Numbered from the stretch's first letter, positions 50,483 through 57,667 are shown. The stretch is 64,000 bases of DNA from a virus (IMGVR_UViG_3300021387_000087); one strand, 5' to 3'. The notes: generated by a model from the sequence alone, not told the origin. Numbers and translations are program-made.

Positions 50483-51413
50483 AGGAGAATGATTATGATG
50501 GAAATTAAAGTAAATGATAAATTTGTTTTTCATTCAAAAAACGGTATGGATTATCGAATTAAAGTAATTAATATTAATAATTACAGAGAACCATCAATGA
50601 AATATGGGTGTGATATTTGGGACGAAAATGGTAATTATGTAGGTGACATTACGTTCGTAGGAGATGATTTTTTTAATAATTATAAGGATCAATTTGAAAG
50701 GATCGAAGATTGAAATATGGCACTTCCAGAATCAGAGAAACAAAAAATTACTGCTACAGTAAGAAATATTACAGAAGTATTCAGAAAAGAATTTAATGTA
50801 AAAATATCTACTGTCCGTAACGCTGATGGTAATTTAACATTAATAATGGGTGATGAACATATAAAAACTGGCATTACTTATACGTTGCAGGATTTCGAAG
50901 ATATAGGTTATTATATTATGCGAAATTATCCCGGAGATTTGGCTTTGTATTTTGGGATATATTGGCAAAATCAGTTAAAATATTTACATTCAGTTTATTC
51001 TAAAAAACTAAGACAAAAAGCATTGAAAATGTTTGGTAACGGATAATTTTTTAGGGAGGATATTTATGGAAAACACAAAAGAAATGAGCATTGAAGATTT
51101 TTGTGAAGAGTTTGATCAGGTAGACGATGAAGCAACTGTAGTTGGCACATTGTTTGATATTAAAAAAAATCTATCTATAAGATGTCGGAAGCAAAGTGTA
51201 GAGTTTTGGGCAGGAGTAGATAAGGGAATCGATTATTTTATCGAAGGAACGGATGTGAATTTTAGAGGAGTTTTTGTTGATGCCGTTAAATGTATTAAAG
51301 AAGAAGATGATGCGTCTGCAGATTATACTATTTGTGATGAATCAGGAAAAATCTTGTTTTTAATTAGTGTTTTGGAGTGCTAAAAAATTAACAAGAAAAA
51401 ATTAAATTAGGTG

Positions 51414-51442
51414 TTGACAATGGATTTCTAATAGTGTAATAT
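51414..51442 (+). promoter_or_regulatory. Promoter of the tRNA cluster
   Basis: TTGACA-N17-TAATAT, about 50 nt before the first tRNA. Confidence 0.65.
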
Positions 51443-51491
51443 AGGTAACGTAGCAAGGGAACAGAGAACAAAAGCGAACTTGCTACTACAA

Positions 51492-51566
51492 TGGGGTATG
51501 GTGAAGCGGTTTAACACACTGCGCTTTGACCGCAGGATTCCGAGAGTTCGAATCTCTCTACCCCAG
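51492..51566 (+). tRNA. tRNA-Gln(TTG)
   Basis: Cloverleaf; CTGCG-CTTTGAC-CGCAG; GTTCGAATC. Confidence 0.9.
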
Positions 51567-51569
51567 TCT

Positions 51570-51653
51570 GGGACGCATACAGCAAAAAGTAAATAATCTA
51601 ATCAAGAATAAAAAAGCATTATGTTTTTCAATGGCATTCCTCCTAGCGTCCTG
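51570..51653 (+). ncRNA. Stand-alone ACAGCAA-module RNA A
   Basis: GGGACGC-AT-ACAGCAA ... GCGTCCT-G. Confidence 0.7.
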
Positions 51654-51678
51654 TATAAAAGAAAATAAAATTAAATAA

Positions 51679-51799
51679 CCACCCATAGTCTAATTGGTTA
51701 AAACGCTTAGCATAACAAATCATGATTGTGATTTTTACAGCAAATTATTTGCGTTCTCCTGTCCCGAGAGAGTTGATGGTTCGAGTCCATCTGGGTGGG
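51679..51799 (+). tRNA. tRNA-Asp(GTC)-like RNA with 48-nt ACAGCAA-module insertion (51708-51755)
   Basis: Acceptor CCACCCA/TGGGTGG, D arm, CT|CTC-CTGTCCC-GAGAG, T arm GATGG-TTCGAGT-CCATC. Confidence 0.8.
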
Positions 51800-51803
51800 T
51801 TTT

Positions 51804-51862
51804 GGGACTCATACAGCATAAAACAGACTGATAATCTGCTTGCCATGAAATGGCGAGTCCTG
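51804..51862 (+). ncRNA. Stand-alone module RNA B with Ile(GAT)-like anticodon arm
   Basis: GGGACTC-AT-ACAGCAT ... CAGA-CTGATAA-TCTG ... GAGTCCT-G. Confidence 0.72.
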
Positions 51863-51869
51863 TTAATAT

Positions 51870-51990
51870 CTGTGCCTTAGTTCAGTGGTAGAACACTAAT
51901 GCAAAATGAATCATGAATGTGGTTCTCACAGCAAATATTTTGCTTCTATTGTGGATAGAGAGGTCGTAGGTTCGAGTCCTACAGGCACAG
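51870..51990 (+). tRNA. tRNA-His(GTG)-like RNA with 48-nt ACAGCAA-module insertion (51898-51945)
   Basis: CTGTGCCT/AGGCACAG, D arm GTTC/GAAC, CT|CTA-TTGTGGA-TAGAG, T arm GTAGG-TTCGAGT-CCTAC. Confidence 0.8.
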
Positions 51991-51996
51991 CTGACT

Positions 51997-52065
51997 GTGA
52001 CACTCACAGCAACAACAATATTCTACACCGTTAATCTGGGGACTGTAGAAACCCCAAGTGTCATG
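51997..52065 (+). ncRNA. Stand-alone module RNA C in the leader of the DUF2828-like gene
   Basis: GTGACAC-TC-ACAGCAA ... GTGTCAT-G directly before the RBS. Confidence 0.68.
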
Positions 52066-52085
52066 AAAGGAAAAGGTATTTTATT

Positions 52086-53594
52086 ATGAATTTTGCACAG
52101 GCGATTAAAAATGAAACAAAATGGACAAGGACTGAAAACGGAGCTGTTGCACTGAAGACAACAGATGATGCGCTGCTTGACCTCTTTGGTACAATTGGTG
52201 CTTTGAGAAATGCAGACGAAGCACGCATTACATCACTTTTTGAGGAAGCGTATAACGCAAATCCTCTGTATGCTACAAAGATTCTTTTCTACGCAAGAGA
52301 TATTCGTGGAGATGAAGAGACTCAGGGTCTTGGAGAGAGACGTGTATTCAGAATTATTCTGAAATATTGTGCACTGCATCATCCTAAGGCAATTCGTCCC
52401 AATCTTGATTTGATTGGTGCCTATGGTCGCTACGATGACCTGTATGAACTGATCGGCACTCCTCTGGAAAATGAGATGTGGACTGCTATGAAGAAGCAGT
52501 TTGAAGAAGACCTTGATAATATGTCAAAAGGGAACGCAATCTCTCTTCTGGCTAAGTGGATCAAGACTGCTGATGCTTCTTCACCTAAGACAAGGGCGCT
52601 TGGTAAGTTGACCGCACAGAAACTTGGATATGATGTATATAACTTCAAGCGTATCGTGCGTGCAATGCGTAAGCAGATTGGCATTGTTGAAGCACTGATG
52701 TCTACTGGACGTTGGGATGAGATTAAGTATTCTGAAGTTCCGTCCAGAGCAATGCTTATTTACAGAAATGCTTTTAGAAAGCATGATGAAGAGCGTTTTA
52801 ATCAGTTCGCACAGAAAGCTGTTACTGGAGAAGAGAAAATTAATTCTGGTACACTGTTTCCTTACGATATTGTAAGTAGATATGCTAGTCGTAATTGGTA
52901 TGATGGAAAATGGTATACTGGCTCTAATTTGAATGAAACAGAAGAGAATGTTCTTCAAGCACAGTGGGATCAGCTTCCTAATTATGTAGACGAAGGTACT
53001 AATGCTCTGGTCATTGCAGATACTTCTGGTTCTATGAGTGGGCGTCCAATGGATACAGCTGTTAGTTTGGCAATCTATTTTGCTCAGAGAAACCATGGAG
53101 CATTTAAAAATCTGTGGATGAATTTCAGCTCTCGTCCTTCTTATCAGCAAATTAAAGGGAAGACACTGAAGCAGATTCTTAATAATATTAATTATAGTAA
53201 TTGGGGTAATAGTACCAATTGCAAGGCTGCTTTTGAAATGATTCTAGATACGGCTATTCAGTATCATATTCCTCAGGAAGATATGCCCAAGGCATTGGTT
53301 ATTATTTCTGATATGGAATTTGATTACTGTGGTGGTGAAAATTGGACGTTCTATGATCAGATGAGGAGTGAATTCGCTAGAAATGGTTATGAGATTCCTT
53401 CTGTTATCTTTTGGGATGTCGAGAGCCGTCATGATGTATTCCACGCAGATAAGAATCGCAAGGGAGTTATCCTTGTCAGTGGTCAGAGTGCTGGAACATT
53501 TAAGAATTTGATCGGAGCAATTGGTATGAGTCCTATGGATTTCGTAATGCAGGTTGTCAACGCAAAACGATATGAACCGATTACGGTCGGATAA
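52086..53594 (+). CDS. DUF2828-like protein (TROVE/Ro60-like helical region + vWA domain)
   Basis: RTENGA, FYARDIRG..GLGERRVF, YGRYDDL, LLAKW, YSEVPSRAM; vWA MIDAS DTSGSM, ST, ISDMEFD. Confidence 0.85.
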   Translation: MNFAQAIKNETKWTRTENGAVALKTTDDALLDLFGTIGALRNADEARITSLFEEAYNANPLYATKILFYARDIRGDEETQGLGERRVFRIILKYCALHHPKAIRPNLDLIGAYGRYDDLYELIGTPLENEMWTAMKKQFEEDLDNMSKGNAISLLAKWIKTADASSPKTRALGKLTAQKLGYDVYNFKRIVRAMRKQIGIVEALMSTGRWDEIKYSEVPSRAMLIYRNAFRKHDEERFNQFAQKAVTGEEKINSGTLFPYDIVSRYASRNWYDGKWYTGSNLNETEENVLQAQWDQLPNYVDEGTNALVIADTSGSMSGRPMDTAVSLAIYFAQRNHGAFKNLWMNFSSRPSYQQIKGKTLKQILNNINYSNWGNSTNCKAAFEMILDTAIQYHIPQEDMPKALVIISDMEFDYCGGENWTFYDQMRSEFARNGYEIPSVIFWDVESRHDVFHADKNRKGVILVSGQSAGTFKNLIGAIGMSPMDFVMQVVNAKRYEPITVG

Positions 53595-53599
53595 TTCAT

Positions 53600-54290
53600 A
53601 TAGTGGATACAGACACTTAAAATCTGTATCATAAGCGCCGATGGACGCTATATATTCCATTCAATTATGCGTCATGATCGTGACGCATGCACAGCAACGC
53701 ACACAAGATTGGGGAACGTGAGTACGGGTGAAGATATTAAGATCTTTGCTTTAAGGGTGCCAGAAATGGCTTCTAAGTACAATTCAAAGGAACTGGTGCC
53801 CGCACTGGTTCGCCGTATACTCGGCTTTAATCGAGCCAAATGCTCGGTTAACAGGAAACCGGAACCTGTACAAAAAACACACACTGGGCATATAATTGGC
53901 GGCATGCACGGAACAGCCTAAGAACCGCAAGGGACATATAGTTATTCAGATTTCATTGGTTTTACTAATCAGAGTAACATTACTCAGATTTCATTGGTTT
54001 TACTAATCAGAATAGCTATATAGCGCATCACATCGAAGATCCCTAGACATGCAAGTGATGTAAACCGCAGAATGGATGATGCGGCATAAAAATGATCAAC
54101 CATCCTGTATGAGTAGGGGATAGGAAGAGTGAATCCGGCTACATACAGTGAGACCTAAAGCCCCTGATGTGAATGGGACTATGCGTGATTGTTTTCAGAC
54201 TAAAACACATCTAAAACGCTAGGCAAAACAGGCTTTGCACATCACATGTATCTAGCCTGTGTACACTTCTCTGTGATGTGCATTATTTAA
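53600..54290 (+). ncRNA. Candidate long structured ncRNA(s) with an ACAGCAA module near the 5' end
   Basis: No credible CDS; ATGCGTCAT-GATC-GTGACGCAT-GC-ACAGCAA at 53667-53697; many stems; duplicated 28-nt unit. Confidence 0.5.
53946..54011 (+). repeat. Two identical 28-nt direct repeats, period 38
   Basis: TCAGATTTCATTGGTTTTACTAATCAGA at 53946 and 53984. Confidence 0.9.
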
Positions 54291-54425
54291 AAGGTGCTAC
54301 AAAACAATTATAAATTATATGAATTTGACATTGAGAGTCTATATAATAAATAAGGTAAGAGTAGTAGTTAAATGGAGTTTGATGAACAGCCTTTTTAAAG
54401 TAATGTGATATAGAGAAGTTAATAT

Positions 54426-54516
54426 GCCACTATAAGCCTAATTGGTAAGGCAGTAGTCTTGAAAACTACCAGTAATCGTGATGAGCGATGTTCCTGTTCG
54501 AGTCGGGATAGTGGCG
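54426..54516 (+). tRNA. tRNA-Ser(TGA)
   Basis: GTAGT-CTTGAAA-ACTAC; long variable arm. Confidence 0.88.
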
Positions 54517-54611
54517 TATAATTCAGGCTTGAGTAAGAGGACTCTGTAAGTAGTTGATAGTGGAACAATAACCTGAATTAAAGAATGTATAATTAAAAGG
54601 TGGTGTGACAT

Positions 54612-55145
54612 GTGGAATATAAGAAAGAACCTGTCAAAGGATATGAAGAATATCAGGTAGACACTAATGGAATTGTTTATGGTAAAAATGGTAAGCCATT
54701 AAAATATTCGTTAAATCATAAAGGATATTGTATTATAAACTTTTCAATTAATGGTCAAGTAAAAGGATTTGCGATACATACATTAGTAGCTAAACAGTTT
54801 ATTCCTAATAACGATCCATCAAAATGGCAAGTAAATCATAAAGACGGAAATAAAGAAAATAATAATATTAGCAACCTTGAATGGGTCACTCCTGAAGAAA
54901 ACATAAAACATTCAAAAGAGGTGCTAGGAAATAATAATCTTGGTGCTAATAGTAGTCAAGCAAAACCTATAAAAGGTGTCAGTAAAAAAGATGGCACCGA
55001 AATATATTTTGATGCAATGTCAGATGGCGCACGTTTTTTAGCAAGAAAACACAATATTAAATTTATACATGCTAAATGTTCGTTGTGGCGTGCTTTAAGT
55101 GGTTGTAGAAAAAGTTATAAAGGATATTATTGGCAATATGTCTAA
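54612..55145 (+). CDS. NUMOD4-type HNH homing endonuclease
   Basis: VKGYEEYQVDTNG, HTLVAKQFI, VNHKDGNKENNNISNLEWVT. Confidence 0.9.
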   Translation: MEYKKEPVKGYEEYQVDTNGIVYGKNGKPLKYSLNHKGYCIINFSINGQVKGFAIHTLVAKQFIPNNDPSKWQVNHKDGNKENNNISNLEWVTPEENIKHSKEVLGNNNLGANSSQAKPIKGVSKKDGTEIYFDAMSDGARFLARKHNIKFIHAKCSLWRALSGCRKSYKGYYWQYV

Positions 55146-55153
55146 TAATAAAT

Positions 55154-55237
55154 GCCCCCTTGGTGGAACAGGAAGACACGCCGCATTTAAGCTGCGGTTC
55201 CGCAACAGGAGTGAGAGTTCAAATCTCTCAGGGGGTA
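55154..55237 (+). tRNA. tRNA-Leu(TAA)
   Basis: CCGCA-TTTAAGC-TGCGG; long variable arm. Confidence 0.88.
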
Positions 55238-55320
55238 TTCACAAAACAGAGATGAACGGAAAGCATGACTGTTTTGTACTGAAATATGCTCACATCTATA
55301 TGATGTATAAAACTTTCCAA

Positions 55321-55385
55321 GGGACACTTACAGCAAACTATAACAGAACAAGACTTGAAATCTTCTTTCTCTTAATAGTGTCCTG
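55321..55385 (+). ncRNA. Stand-alone module RNA E with Ser(TGA)-like anticodon arm
   Basis: GGGACAC-TT-ACAGCAA ... AAGA-CTTGAAA-TCTT ... GTGTCCT-G. Confidence 0.72.
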
Positions 55386-55396
55386 TAATTAAATAT

Positions 55397-55512
55397 GCCG
55401 ACCTTAGCTCAATGGTAGAGCACGTATGAATGGATTATGTTTGTAATCCTAACAGCAATTACTTCTTCCACTGGTAATGGCGTTGTTATTGGTTCGAATC
55501 CAATAGGTCGGC
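55397..55512 (+). tRNA. tRNA-Thr(GGT)-like RNA with 43-nt ACAGCAA-module insertion (55425-55467)
   Basis: GCCGACCT/AGGTCGGC, D arm GCTC/GAGC, CG|CCA-CTGGTAA-TGGCG, T arm ATTGG-TTCGAAT-CCAAT. Confidence 0.8.
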
Positions 55513-55517
55513 TTTCT

Positions 55518-55602
55518 GGGATTCGCACAGCAAAATAAAATGGATAAACAAAAATTCTGCAAAAATTTGAGTGAGTGGGTTCAAATCCCTAAACGAATCC
55601 TG
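55518..55602 (+). ncRNA. Stand-alone module RNA F with Cys(GCA)-like anticodon arm and T-loop remnant
   Basis: GGGATTC-GC-ACAGCAA ... AAATT-CTGCAAA-AATTT ... GGG-TTCAAAT-CCC ... GAATCCT-G. Confidence 0.72.
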
Positions 55603-55679
55603 TTTTGTAACTATAGCAGTGTCATGAATTATTTAAAAACGAAAAATATAAAACAAAACATTTAAAAAAGGTAAAACAA

Positions 55680-56048
55680 ATGAAAATCAACTGGTTAGAC
55701 GAATCGCCTCTGACTTATGAAGAAGCAATGGAATTGTTAAGTCATTCGCACGAGAAGCGTCTGGAAATGGAAGATAAAAATAAATGGGATGCTTATGTAA
55801 ATGATTTTACGTTCTGGACTTTTCTCAATGATACTTACGGTTATATGCTTGATGAAGTTAAAAAAGAGGTTGATGATTTTTATTTAAAATATTCTTATCC
55901 AAAGGTTAGAGAAATAATTGATTGGGAAATAATTTTAAATAGAAGTGATGAACTTGCAAAAGATATTTTAAAGCAAGAAGAAAAAGAAAATATTTGGGAA
56001 ATCATAGAAGATTGGTGGATAACATTATTTATAGCATTATATCTTTAA
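55680..56048 (+). CDS. Hypothetical protein
   Basis: ORF with AAGG RBS inside the tRNA cluster. Confidence 0.6.
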   Translation: MKINWLDESPLTYEEAMELLSHSHEKRLEMEDKNKWDAYVNDFTFWTFLNDTYGYMLDEVKKEVDDFYLKYSYPKVREIIDWEIILNRSDELAKDILKQEEKENIWEIIEDWWITLFIALYL

Positions 56049-56085
56049 TTAATTTAGGTCATGTGAAATTTTCTATAAATAGATT

Positions 56086-56152
56086 GGGACGCTTACAGCA
56101 AAGTTATTTGGGAATAGACTTTTAATCTATGTAACCGAAATAAAGCGTCCTG
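56086..56152 (+). ncRNA. Stand-alone module RNA G with Lys(TTT)-like anticodon arm
   Basis: GGGACGC-TT-ACAGCAA ... ATAGA-CTTTTAA-TCTAT ... GCGTCCT-G. Confidence 0.75.
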
Positions 56153-56190
56153 TTTAAAAGAAGTTAAGTTGTGCACAACTATTAAAAAGT

Positions 56191-56263
56191 ATGTCTCTAG
56201 TGTCAGCGGATAGCACGGTGGTCTCCAAAACCACAAGGCAGAGTTCGAATCTCTGGGGGCATG
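56191..56263 (+). tRNA. tRNA-Trp(CCA)
   Basis: GTGGT-CTCCAAA-ACCAC; T arm CAGAG/CTCTG. Confidence 0.88.
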
Positions 56264-56405
56264 TTTAATACAAAAATCAATGGACGCATTGGTAGATGTA
56301 TTAACGCTTATCAAAGGATATCGCTAAGGGACGAAGATTAAAAGAGTGACTGAGGGTGGAGCAGATTGATCGACTGCTAACAGGTGAAAAAGTATGATAA
56401 GTGTC

Positions 56406-56476
56406 CGCACTATGGTGTAAAGGTAGCATACTTCCGATATTAGGAAGAGGTCTGCGTTCAATTCGTAGTGGTGCAA
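56406..56476 (+). tRNA. tRNA-like gene with non-canonical anticodon loop (nominal TAT)
   Basis: Full cloverleaf, but the loop GATATTA lacks U33 and purine 37; C1-A72 mismatch. Confidence 0.6.
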
Positions 56477-56985: not shown

Positions 56986-57060
56986 GCTCCTGTAGCTCAG
57001 TTGGTTTAGAGCAATAGATTTTTAATCTATTGGTCAGGGATTCGAGTTCCCTCAGGGGCA
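56986..57060 (+). tRNA. tRNA-Lys(TTT)
   Basis: ATAGA-TTTTTAA-TCTAT; cloverleaf. Confidence 0.9.
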
Positions 57061-57325: not shown

Positions 57326-57667
57326 ATGATTAAAGAAAATACATATGATTTGTTTGCTGGAGAAGAATTAAAAATAGCAGAAAAGATCCAGCAACGGCGT
57401 TATCAAATGCTCACCCATTCTTGTTTATATTATCATTTAAATAAAAATATAATATCTGACAAACAGTGGGATACATGGGCAAGAGAACTTAAAGATTTGC
57501 AGAAACAGTATCCTGATATTTCAGCCAAGGTAACGCTGTACAATGAGTTTAAGGACTGGGATGCAAGCACAGGGGCATTCCTACCGATTGAGGAACCATG
57601 GGTTGTGATGATGGCAAAAAAACTATTAGCTGTGATAATTAATGTTTCAATTCAAAGGGGAAAATAA
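57326..57667 (+). CDS. Stand-alone LigA N-terminal (subdomain Ia)-like protein
   Basis: HSCLYY...IISDKQWD...L..L...YP resembles the NAD-ligase Ia motif YY....ISD..YD. Confidence 0.6.
   Translation: MIKENTYDLFAGEELKIAEKIQQRRYQMLTHSCLYYHLNKNIISDKQWDTWARELKDLQKQYPDISAKVTLYNEFKDWDASTGAFLPIEEPWVVMMAKKLLAVIINVSIQRGK

What the first reader, a model, noticed from the sequence alone, without database searches (positions are those of the whole stretch)
51804..56152. Stand-alone mini-RNAs display isolated anticodon stem-loops: possible decoys for anticodon nucleases
Seen: inside the terminal helix, B carries CAGA-CTGATAA-TCTG (Ile GAT), E carries AAGA-CTTGAAA-TCTT (Ser TGA), F carries AAATT-CTGCAAA-AATTT (Cys GCA) plus a T-loop remnant, and G carries ATAGA-CTTTTAA-TCTAT (Lys TTT). 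All four are canonical 7-nt CU-NNN-AA loops. The G arm differs by one base from the anticodon arm of the real tRNA-Lys at 56986. A and C have only ambiguous loops. Known: host defences such as PrrC and RloC cleave tRNA anticodon loops, notably tRNA-Lys(UUU) for PrrC. Inference: a panel of anticodon decoys, or substrates/guides for tRNA protection or repair.
Basis: partly seen in the sequence, partly recalled or inferred. Interest (0 to 1): 0.87.

Follow-up and report, generated by a model that had tools for sequence, protein, structure and literature searches.

The report
Anticodon arms on Ro60-like handle RNAs
Four small RNA genes in a rumen-type phage tRNA cluster each show a copy of a tRNA anticodon arm on a conserved "handle" that travels with a Ro60-shaped protein gene in many phages; they are probably that protein's partner RNAs (a new kind of Y RNA), and their use as decoys for tRNA-cutting defence enzymes is possible but untested.

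Summary
B, E, F and G each fold into a terminal helix that encloses a 4-5 bp stem with a canonical 7-nt CU-NNN-AA loop. Chance predicts 0.0035 such hairpins in these 445 nt. In 29 relatives of G, including Campylobacter phage CPX, the arm covaries. Positions 31-33 and 36-39 are fixed while 34-35 change (UU, GU, GC).

These RNAs are not isolated oddities. All ten local elements share one handle: a 5' G, a 6-7 bp helix, NN-ACAGCAA, and UG after the 3' strand.

- A protein-blind DNA scan found the DUF2828 gene in 56 of 65 loci with a validated handle and in 0 of 48 without.
- The handle also occurs in Listeria P100, Felix O1-like, Tsamsa, LeBron and Enterococcus phages.
- The protein model matches Ro60 over its full length.
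- The cargo varies between plain hairpins, anticodon arms, T arms, permuted tRNA bodies (weak Rfam YrlA hits) and whole tRNAs with the handle at 28/29.
- The handle has the signature of Dictyostelium Class I RNAs.

Best reading: these are Y-RNA-like partners of a Ro60-like protein. The decoy idea is not excluded and not shown. This scan has reported the same RNA-protein pairing on many other genomes. I found no published description.

The parts
51570..51654 (+). Handle RNA A, stand-alone, cargo without an anticodon-like loop
   Evidence: Handle scan; fold; starts 3 nt after tRNA-Gln
51679..51799 (+). T1: tRNA-Asp(GTC) body with a 48-nt closed-hairpin handle (51708-51755) between positions 28 and 29
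   Evidence: Rfam tRNA 37.5 bits; perfect anticodon stem once the insert is removed (by eye)
51804..51863 (+). Handle RNA B: anticodon-like arm 51824-51838 (loop CTGATAA) plus a second hairpin
51871..51990 (+). T2: tRNA-His(GTG) body with a 48-nt handle (51898-51945) at 28/29
   Evidence: Rfam tRNA 47.9 bits; the L007 ortholog has GGG in place of GTG
51997..52066 (+). Handle RNA C, ending just before the ribosome-binding site of the Ro60-like gene; candidate autoregulatory operator
   Evidence: in phi-pp2 the 3' strand of the handle helix covers the gene's start codon
52086..53594 (+). Ro60-like protein (Pfam DUF2828 + DUF7788/vWA; PHROG 850 'RNA-binding protein')
   Evidence: AF2 model pLDDT 93.4; the top 12 listed Foldseek PDB hits are Ro60/TROVE entries, best E 2.5e-9, TM up to 0.55; the MIDAS residues D312, S314 and S316 are invariant in 59 homologs
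53667..53697 (+). Handle D, closed-hairpin form, at the start of the roughly 0.8-kb non-coding stretch 53600-54420
   Evidence: no tRNA context found
55321..55386 (+). Handle RNA E: anticodon-like arm 55350-55364 (loop CTTGAAA)
   Evidence: Rfam Dicty_Class_I_RNA 23.8 bits, below the gathering score
55397..55513 (+). T3: tRNA-Thr(GGT) body with a 43-nt handle (55425-55467) at 28/29
   Evidence: Rfam tRNA 43.3 bits; junction after nucleotide 28
55518..55603 (+). Handle RNA F: anticodon-like arm 55552-55568 (loop CTGCAAA) plus a T-arm-like hairpin 55577-55589
   Evidence: the arm is not in the minimum-energy fold
56086..56153 (+). Handle RNA G: GG/CC helix, then anticodon-like arm 56114-56130 (loop CTTTTAA)
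   Evidence: Rfam Class I 17.8 bits
56986..57060 (+). Bona fide tRNA-Lys(TTT), whose anticodon arm matches G's arm at 16 of 17 positions

Best explanation
B, E, F and G are members of a family of small 'handle' RNAs that are the cognate partners of the neighbouring Ro60-like (DUF2828/vWA) ring protein. They are a Y-RNA-like ribonucleoprotein system embedded in the phage tRNA operon. Each RNA is likely cut out of the tRNA transcript. It is closed by a 6-7 bp helix with a 5' G, an unpaired NN-ACAGCAA after the 5' strand and UG(U) after the 3' strand. By analogy with Ro60 binding to the Y RNA stem, this handle is inferred to be what the protein grips. The rest of the RNA is exchangeable cargo copied from tRNAs. 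In this window the cargo is bare anticodon arms (B, E, G), an anticodon arm plus T arm (F), or a whole tRNA with the handle budding from the anticodon stem at 28/29 (T1-T3). The copy in front of the protein gene (C) probably lets the protein repress its own translation. The displayed tRNA parts are then read by tRNA-directed factors. These could be host anticodon-arm nucleases (sponge or shield) or processing and repair enzymes (tether). Shown here: the RNA family, its covariation, its genomic linkage to the protein and the protein's Ro60 fold. Inferred: physical binding, processing, autoregulation and what the displayed arm is for.
For: 1. Handle family. A purpose-written scan (helix + ACAGCA + UG) found 256 elements in 75 of 123 sequences searched, against 3 in the reversed-sequence control. 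The base before the helix is G in 102 of 107 unique elements, although the scan did not require it.
2. Linkage. In an IMG/VR scan by DNA pattern alone, 56 of 65 loci with a validated handle hold a DUF2828 homolog and 0 of 48 without one do. All 231 handles lie on the gene's strand, and 175 lie within 1 kb upstream.
3. Depth. Handles lie beside homologs of only 24-38% identity: L064 (giant-virus MAG), L101, Listeria P100, a Felix O1-like phage, Tsamsa, CPX, phiKSUM and ZJGS2, with slight variants in LeBron.
4. Protein. The AF2 model has pLDDT 93.4, and the top 12 listed PDB hits are Ro60/TROVE entries over TROVE + vWA, including the phage phiLo Ro60. The MIDAS motif is invariant.
5. Y-RNA parallel. 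Relatives carry a T arm, closed acceptor and D arm as cargo, and these hit Rfam YrlA at 45.9 and 34.4 bits, E 1e-8 and 3e-5.
6. Arms are selected. G-type helices are 98.1% paired with 10 of 13 pairs changed on both sides. No shuffle reached this and slid controls collapse.
7. Context. The gene sits in tRNA arrays, with RtcB and an RNA ligase 2-5 kb downstream in P100. LeBron also encodes an RNA ligase and a polynucleotide kinase (PMC13148394).
8. Operator. In phi-pp2 the 3' strand of the handle helix covers the gene's AUG, and C abuts the ribosome-binding site here.
Against: No binding or expression experiment exists for this family. The handle does not resemble the known Ro60 site: it lacks the bulged helix and the GNCGAA motif (PMC4201824). 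Rfam YrlA does not match any RNA of this window. Where it matches relatives, the helix part is mismatched. Pfam files the protein under DUF2828, not TROVE, and a sequence search of the PDB finds nothing significant. The handle scan required helix pairing, so its pair counts for the terminal helix are partly circular. The RNA-library contigs that cover the region could come from DNA in those libraries.
Confidence: 0.72

Rival explanations
1. First reader's reading. The displayed anticodon arms, and the handle-tagged whole tRNAs, are decoys or shields that bind or absorb host anticodon-arm nucleases such as PrrC, RloC, PARIS AriB or OLD, possibly with the Ro60-like protein stabilising or trapping the complex.
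For: The loops are canonical and conserved, with variation only at positions 34-35. The invariant U36-A37-A38-U39, mostly followed by C40, equals the UAAU(C) stretch shared by the AriB targets tRNA-Lys(UUU), Thr(UGU) and Asn(GUU), which are cut at 40/41 (PMC12409363). The anticodons seen on handle RNAs and handle-tagged tRNAs (UUU, GUU, UGU, GUG, UGG) overlap that paper's target list, but this comparison was made after the fact. The 28/29 insertion lies one base pair from the 40/41 cut site. That paper also raises viral tRNAs as possible AriB inhibitors. The system sits in tRNA and RNA-repair islands.
Against: 45 of 86 unique stand-alone members have no anticodon-like loop. B's slot loses the loop in L002/L003. 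Members in P100 and the Felix O1-like phage show no such arm. AriB needs contacts outside the anticodon arm, so a bare arm may not be recognised. The arms are not generally copies of the phage's own tRNA arms: mean best identity is 10.8 versus 10.0 of 17. A same-anticodon tRNA is not clearly enriched nearby: 24 observed versus 17.9 expected of 59. The host and its nucleases are unknown.
Confidence: 0.2
2. Tether reading, as for classical Y RNAs. The tRNA-like cargo recruits tRNA-processing, modification, repair or decay enzymes (RtcB, kinase/ligase, CCA-adding enzyme, PNPase, t6A or i6A enzymes) to the Ro60-like ring, which handles damaged or misfolded tRNAs of the phage's large tRNA set.
For: Y RNA tethers Ro60 to PNPase, and YrlA mimics tRNA (PMC4201824). 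Phage phiLo Ro60 forms ternary complexes with Y-like RNAs and PNPase (PMC12135203). In Salmonella, rsr, yrlBA and rtcBA share an operon regulated by damaged tRNAs (PMC7790460). P100 has RtcB and an RNA ligase beside the gene. LeBron has a ligase and a kinase. The loops are standard substrates of position-37 enzymes (U36-A37 or A36-A37-A38), which is textbook knowledge.
Against: No RtcB, ligase or kinase was seen near the gene in the part of this window examined. No enzyme partner is identified. Diverse cargo, including plain hairpins, fits any 'display' model equally well.
Confidence: 0.3
3. The handle is a small mobile or spliced element (mini-intron) of tRNA genes. The stand-alone RNAs are then decayed or rearranged tRNA genes, and the protein is a maturase-like or unrelated neighbour.
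For: 42 of 44 closed-hairpin handles lie inside tRNA-like genes. Where the junction is unambiguous it falls at 27-29. Stand-alone and inserted forms are circular permutations of each other. An HNH endonuclease ORF lies in the array.
Against: No contig from four RNA libraries joins across any of the three inserts, and contigs carry T1 and T2 with the insert. This is weak evidence because contigs drop rare forms. Stand-alone RNAs have their own covarying cargo. Handles occur beside the protein gene without any nearby tRNA in phiKSUM and LeBron. No known self-splicing fold fits 43-48 nt.
Confidence: 0.07
4. The elements are mere processing punctuation or tRNA-gene debris in the tRNA operon (RNase P/Z/E sites) with no dedicated protein partner.
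For: The RNAs abut tRNA ends, 3-10 nt from A, B, C, E and F. The terminal helix of about 7 bp resembles an acceptor stem.
Against: Conservation and covariation extend across phages of very different hosts. Linkage is to the protein gene rather than to tRNAs. The heptamer, the 5' G and the 3' UG are invariant.
Confidence: 0.04

Closest known systems
Ro60 (Rsr) with Y RNAs, especially bacterial and phage YrlA (Rfam RF02553; Chen et al. 2014, PMC4201824; Thermus phage phiLo Ro60, PMC12135203)
   Same: The protein is a ring-plus-vWA fold. Several small RNA genes lie on the same strand within a few kb. Each RNA is closed by pairing of its 5' and 3' ends and carries a tRNA-like module. Relatives' RNAs hit the YrlA model through the T arm, closed acceptor and D arm.
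   Different: The protein belongs to a different Pfam family (DUF2828/DUF7788). The handle is a helix plus ACAGCAA, not the bulged helix with GNCGAA. The cargo includes bare anticodon arms and complete tRNAs with the handle at 28/29, which are not described for Y RNAs. There are up to ten copies per locus.
Dictyostelium Class I RNAs (Rfam RF01414; Kjellin et al. 2021, PMC7919456)
   Same: Both have a 6-bp end-to-end stem with a conserved 5' G, an unpaired motif ending in UUACAGCAA next to the 5' strand, a 3' end of CUGU, a variable remainder and a length of about 60 nt.
   Different: Scores are 23.8 and 17.8 bits against a gathering score of 41.5. These are phage genes rather than amoeba genes, with no DUSE promoter. 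Class I RNAs are reported as unique to dictyostelids, and their only named direct binder is an RRM protein. Whether dictyostelids encode a DUF2828 protein was not tested here.
Phage tRNAs that neutralise tRNA-cutting defences (T5 tRNA-Lys/Thr/Asn against PARIS AriB; PMC11464382, PMC12409363)
   Same: These are phage-encoded RNAs with anticodon arms of Lys(UUU), Asn(GUU) or Thr type in a tRNA island. The UAAU(C) stretch next to the AriB cut site is present in G-type and B arms.
   Different: T5 uses complete, decoding, cleavage-resistant tRNAs that replace the host's. The mini-RNAs cannot decode. No nuclease is known here.
RNA-repair gene sets: Salmonella rsr-yrlBA-rtcBA (PMC7790460), and phage T4 Pnk/Rnl1 against PrrC (textbook knowledge)
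   Same: A Ro-type protein and tRNA-like RNAs are linked to RtcB, ligase or kinase genes in P100 and LeBron.
   Different: No ligase or kinase was found beside the gene in the part of this window examined. The link is optional across phages.

Membership tests
Ro60/Y RNA ribonucleoprotein (YrlA type) | Protein partner with a TROVE HEAT-repeat ring plus a vWA/MIDAS domain | tested here: met
   Met at fold level: full-length Foldseek matches to Ro60, best E 2.5e-9, TM up to 0.55. DxSxS is invariant. Not met at sequence-family level: Pfam gives DUF2828/DUF7788.
Ro60/Y RNA ribonucleoprotein (YrlA type) | RNA genes within about 4 kb of the protein gene on the same strand | tested here: met
   231 of 231 handles are on the same strand, and 56 of 65 versus 0 of 48 loci are linked.
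Ro60/Y RNA ribonucleoprotein (YrlA type) | Conserved Ro-binding helix (bulged helix, GNCGAA motif) and an Rfam YrlA match above the gathering score | tested here: not met
   There is no YrlA hit in the window at E up to 10. In L129 the hits are 45.9 and 34.4 bits against 69, with the stem columns mismatched. The handle carries ACAGCAA instead.
Ro60/Y RNA ribonucleoprotein (YrlA type) | tRNA-like domain in at least one RNA per locus | tested here: met
   The window has anticodon arms (B, E, G), an arm plus T arm (F) and whole tRNA bodies (T1-T3). Permuted tRNA bodies occur in relatives.
Ro60/Y RNA ribonucleoprotein (YrlA type) | Physical binding of the RNA to the protein | not testable with these tools
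   No RNA-protein docking tool or wet-lab test was available.
Dictyostelium Class I RNA (RF01414) | 6-bp terminal stem with a conserved 5' G, an adjacent unpaired motif ending in UUACAGCAA, and a 3' CUGU | tested here: met
   Model alignments of E and G match all three elements. The features are as described in PMC7919456.
Dictyostelium Class I RNA (RF01414) | Score at or above the Rfam gathering threshold of 41.5 bits | tested here: not met
   The scores are 23.8 and 17.8 bits.
tRNA | Cloverleaf with acceptor, D, anticodon and T arms (for the mini-RNAs B, E, F, G) | tested here: not met
   ARAGORN and Rfam tRNA give no call on them. Only the anticodon arm is present, plus a T arm in F.
Anticodon-nuclease decoy (functional class) | The RNA mimics the nuclease's target arm | tested here: inconclusive
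   The arms are canonical and contain UAAU(C). The relevant host nuclease is unknown, and AriB also needs contacts outside the arm.
Anticodon-nuclease decoy (functional class) | The RNA binds or inhibits the nuclease and rescues infection | not testable with these tools
   This needs an experiment.

The most novel reading that the evidence does not exclude
A widespread phage Ro60-like particle uses one universal RNA handle to carry swappable tRNA parts: bare anticodon arms whose positions 34-35 drift between Lys, Asn and Ser, and whole tRNAs tagged at 28/29, one base pair from the PARIS cut site. It would then be a programmable decoy or shield against anticodon-arm nucleases. The same handle in Dictyostelium Class I RNAs would mean that this long-unexplained RNA class is the eukaryotic counterpart.
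Probability: 0.15. Interest if true: 0.92.

Novelty: new variant of a known kind. Interest (0 to 1): 0.78.

Why it matters
DUF2828 proteins are common. The search found 6,424 cluster representatives at 50% identity and 705 cultured-phage records, including Felix O1-like phages, Listeria P100, staphylococcal and enterococcal myoviruses and cluster L mycobacteriophages. They are annotated only as 'RNA-binding' or 'Ro-like'. Naming their RNA partners would give this family a testable function in model phages. It would widen the Ro60/Y-RNA concept to a second protein family with a different RNA grip. It would also add a new player to the current contest over tRNAs between phages and defence nucleases. 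The anticodon-arm cargo is the most concrete functional clue, because it says which part of a tRNA the particle presents. The shared signature with Dictyostelium Class I RNAs would make a 20-year-old open question testable.

Tried and rejected
- RNA evidence. Four rumen RNA-library runs, held as contigs only, were laid on 51400-56300. No contig joins across the 28/29 inserts. Contigs cover T1 and T2 with their inserts, and one ends at T1's 3' end. These are contigs that may include DNA, so they show neither transcription nor absence of splicing.
- Arm mimicry of the phage's own tRNAs. This is striking here (16/17) and in L002 (17/17) but not general: mean 10.8 against a null of 10.0 of 17.
- Same-anticodon tRNA nearby. 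24 observed against 17.9 expected of 59, which is not convincing.
- Rfam. There were no matches above the gathering score other than tRNAs, and none for the mini-RNAs.
- PDB search by sequence found nothing significant. Only the fold search worked.
- A literature search for 'DUF2828' returned five unrelated papers. Searches on Ro60 with phage, 'Ro-like', and decoy with anticodon nuclease found no description of this RNA family.
- The whole genome is not held. The ESM Atlas showed only viral and bacterial DUF2828 clusters, so the presence of DUF2828 in dictyostelids was not tested.
- A self-cleaving ribozyme or archaeal-type bulge-helix-bulge intron was considered from memory only. No supporting feature was seen and the idea was not pursued.
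- Complex prediction was not used, because it scores protein-protein pairs only.

Full report
**What is there.** Window 51.4-59 kb is a phage tRNA operon with 11 ARAGORN tRNAs. Rfam finds three further tRNA matches with long inserts. The window also holds an integrase and Sak4-like, methyltransferase and HNH genes. The closest DNA and protein relatives are uncultured gut or rumen viral contigs. Inside the operon lies a 502-aa ORF (52086-53594) that matches Pfam DUF2828 + DUF7788/vWA and PHROG 850, 'RNA-binding protein'.

**Checking the observation.** B, E, F and G are at the stated places. Each has a terminal helix and an internal 4-5 bp stem with a 7-nt CU-NNN-AA loop carrying GAT, TGA, GCA or TTT. 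RNAfold recovers the arms of B, E and G and leaves the ACAGCAA stretch unpaired. F's arm is plausible but is not in its minimum-energy fold, while its T-arm-like hairpin is. Such hairpins occur eight times in the 64-kb window, all on the + strand: three in tRNAs, four in these RNAs and one elsewhere. The expectation for 445 nt is 0.0035, P about 6e-12. G's arm differs from the arm of tRNA-Lys at 56986 only at position 32, and the two arms are identical in relative L002.

**The arms sit on a shared handle.** Ten elements in the window (A, B, C, E, F, G; D; and inserts in three tRNAs) share one design: a G, a 6-7 bp helix, two or three bases, ACAGCAA, and UG after the helix's 3' strand. In the stand-alone RNAs the helix joins the two ends. 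In D and in T1-T3 the helix is closed by a UG-NNN-G loop, which is a circular permutation of the same design. My scan found 256 such elements in 75 of 123 sequences searched, against 3 in reversed sequences. The base before the helix is G in 102 of 107 unique elements, which the scan did not require.

**Linkage to the protein.** I searched IMG/VR with a DNA pattern only, then asked which loci hold a DUF2828 homolog. The answer was 56 of 65 loci with a validated handle and 0 of 48 without. Several of the nine exceptions are chance matches or loci cut short. All 231 handles are on the gene's strand, and 175 lie within 1 kb upstream. The pairing persists at 24-38% protein identity:
- a giant-virus MAG (L064) and L101;
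- Listeria P100, with three handles just upstream of gp165;
- a Felix O1-like phage, Tsamsa, Campylobacter CPX, Fusobacterium phiKSUM and Enterococcus ZJGS2;
- mycobacteriophage LeBron, with slight variants.

In KVP40-like phi-pp2 the handle's 3' strand covers the gene's start codon. Here C ends at the ribosome-binding site. This is the usual layout of an autoregulatory operator.

**The protein.** An AlphaFold model built from 59 diverse homologs has pLDDT 93.4. The top 12 listed PDB matches are Ro60/TROVE entries aligned over the whole length, with best E 2.5e-9 and TM up to 0.55. They include the Thermus phage phiLo Ro60. After them come vWA domains only. The MIDAS DxSxS motif is invariant. 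In cultured phages the gene sits in or beside tRNA arrays. In P100 it lies 2-5 kb from RtcB and an RNA ligase. LeBron gp53 is moderately toxic when overexpressed, and that phage also encodes a ligase and a kinase (PMC13148394).

**Cargo.** Of 86 unique stand-alone members, 41 carry a canonical anticodon-type hairpin. The loops are mostly CTGTTAA, CTTTTAA, CTGCTAA, CTGCAAA and CTTGAAA. The others carry plain hairpins, T arms or nearly whole tRNA bodies. The Felix O1-like, Tsamsa, ZJGS2 and LeBron RNAs hold a T arm, closed acceptor and D arm. Of these, only the ZJGS2 RNAs (L129) hit Rfam YrlA, at 45.9 and 34.4 bits, through that part alone. Closed-hairpin handles lie inside tRNA-like genes in 42 of 44 contexts (Asp, His, Thr, Pro, Ser, Val, Leu). 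Where the junction is unambiguous, the handle follows nucleotide 27-29. The L007 ortholog of T2 has GGG where the window has GTG in an otherwise His-like body. That hints these bodies may not be under decoding selection.

An alignment of 29 G-type RNAs, including CPX, gives 98.1% paired cells. Ten of 13 pairs change on both sides, no shuffle reaches this, and slid controls fall to 28-45%. A31, C32 (nearly), U33, U36, A37, A38 and U39 are fixed, while positions 34-35 read UU, GU or GC. So the loop is conserved while the anticodon varies. E and F keep their loops in close relatives. B does not in L002/L003.

**Interpretation.** The best-supported statement is that these are Y-RNA-like partners of a Ro60-like protein, with tRNA-derived cargo. 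What the displayed arm does is open.
- The decoy idea gains some colour from PARIS. AriB cuts Lys(UUU), Thr(UGU) and Asn(GUU) at 40/41 next to a shared UAAU (PMC12409363). That stretch is invariant in G-type arms, and 28/29 lies one pair from the cut. This comparison was made after the fact, the host is unknown, AriB needs contacts beyond the arm, and half the family lacks such arms.
- A tether role, as for Y RNA with PNPase or the rsr-yrlBA-rtcBA operon, fits equally well.
- RNA-library contigs showed no splicing of the inserts, but contigs are weak evidence.

**Comparison and novelty.** The handle equals the signature of Dictyostelium Class I RNAs: a 6-bp end stem, a 5' G, UUACAGCAA and a 3' CUGU. 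Rfam aligns E and G to that model at sub-threshold scores. Rfam 15 has no family for these RNAs, and the searchable literature has no description. This scan has reported the same pairing on many other genomes, and my tests agree with those reports. I class it as a new variant of the Ro60/Y-RNA kind.

Noticed in passing
window 53600-54420: A non-coding stretch of about 0.8 kb after the Ro60-like gene starts with a closed-hairpin handle (D, 53667-53697) and contains two near-identical direct repeats around 53939-54019. RNA-library contigs of three studies cover parts of it, for example a 308-nt contig over 53910-54217 with 4 differences. It matches no Rfam family. It may be a large cargo RNA on a handle.
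   Followed up: partly
L123:3459-4010 (Listeria phage P100): A ROOL RNA match (86 bits, E 6e-16, just under the gathering score of 99.1) lies between tRNAs about 1 kb upstream of the DUF2828 gene and its three handle RNAs. RtcB and an RNA ligase lie downstream.
   Followed up: no
L130:3930-3975 (Vibrio phage phi-pp2): The handle helix pairs a 6-nt stretch before ACAGCAA with a stretch that includes the DUF2828 gene's ATG. This suggests translational autoregulation.
   Followed up: partly
L007:4821-4880 versus window 51898-51955: The ortholog of the handle-tagged tRNA-His has anticodon GGG instead of GTG in an otherwise similar body. T3 orthologs switch between GGT and TGT.
   Followed up: partly
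window 55405-55504, from RNA-run contigs: Contigs in two RNA libraries join 55504 back to 55405 through short hairpin-like inserts. This is the pattern expected from related phages in which a T3-like tRNA body is circularly permuted, with the acceptor closed by a loop.
   Followed up: no
window 57326-57667: A stand-alone ORF matches only the N-terminal NAD+-binding Ia domain of NAD-dependent DNA ligase (Pfam Nlig-Ia, E 3e-30) and sits inside the tRNA array.
   Followed up: no
window 56406-56476: ARAGORN calls a tRNA-Ile(TAT) with a mismatched acceptor top pair, but Rfam's tRNA model gives no hit there even at E up to 10. It may be a tRNA-like element rather than a working tRNA.
   Followed up: no
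window 54612-55145: An HNH_3 endonuclease ORF lies between tRNA-Ser and tRNA-Leu within the array. In one RNA-library contig the tRNA-Ser region (54421-54520) is replaced by 276 other letters, so this spot is variable among relatives.
   Followed up: no
L129:518-868 (Enterococcus phage ZJGS2): A full tmRNA gene (152 bits) lies in the same tRNA and handle-RNA island, upstream of the DUF2828 gene.
   Followed up: no
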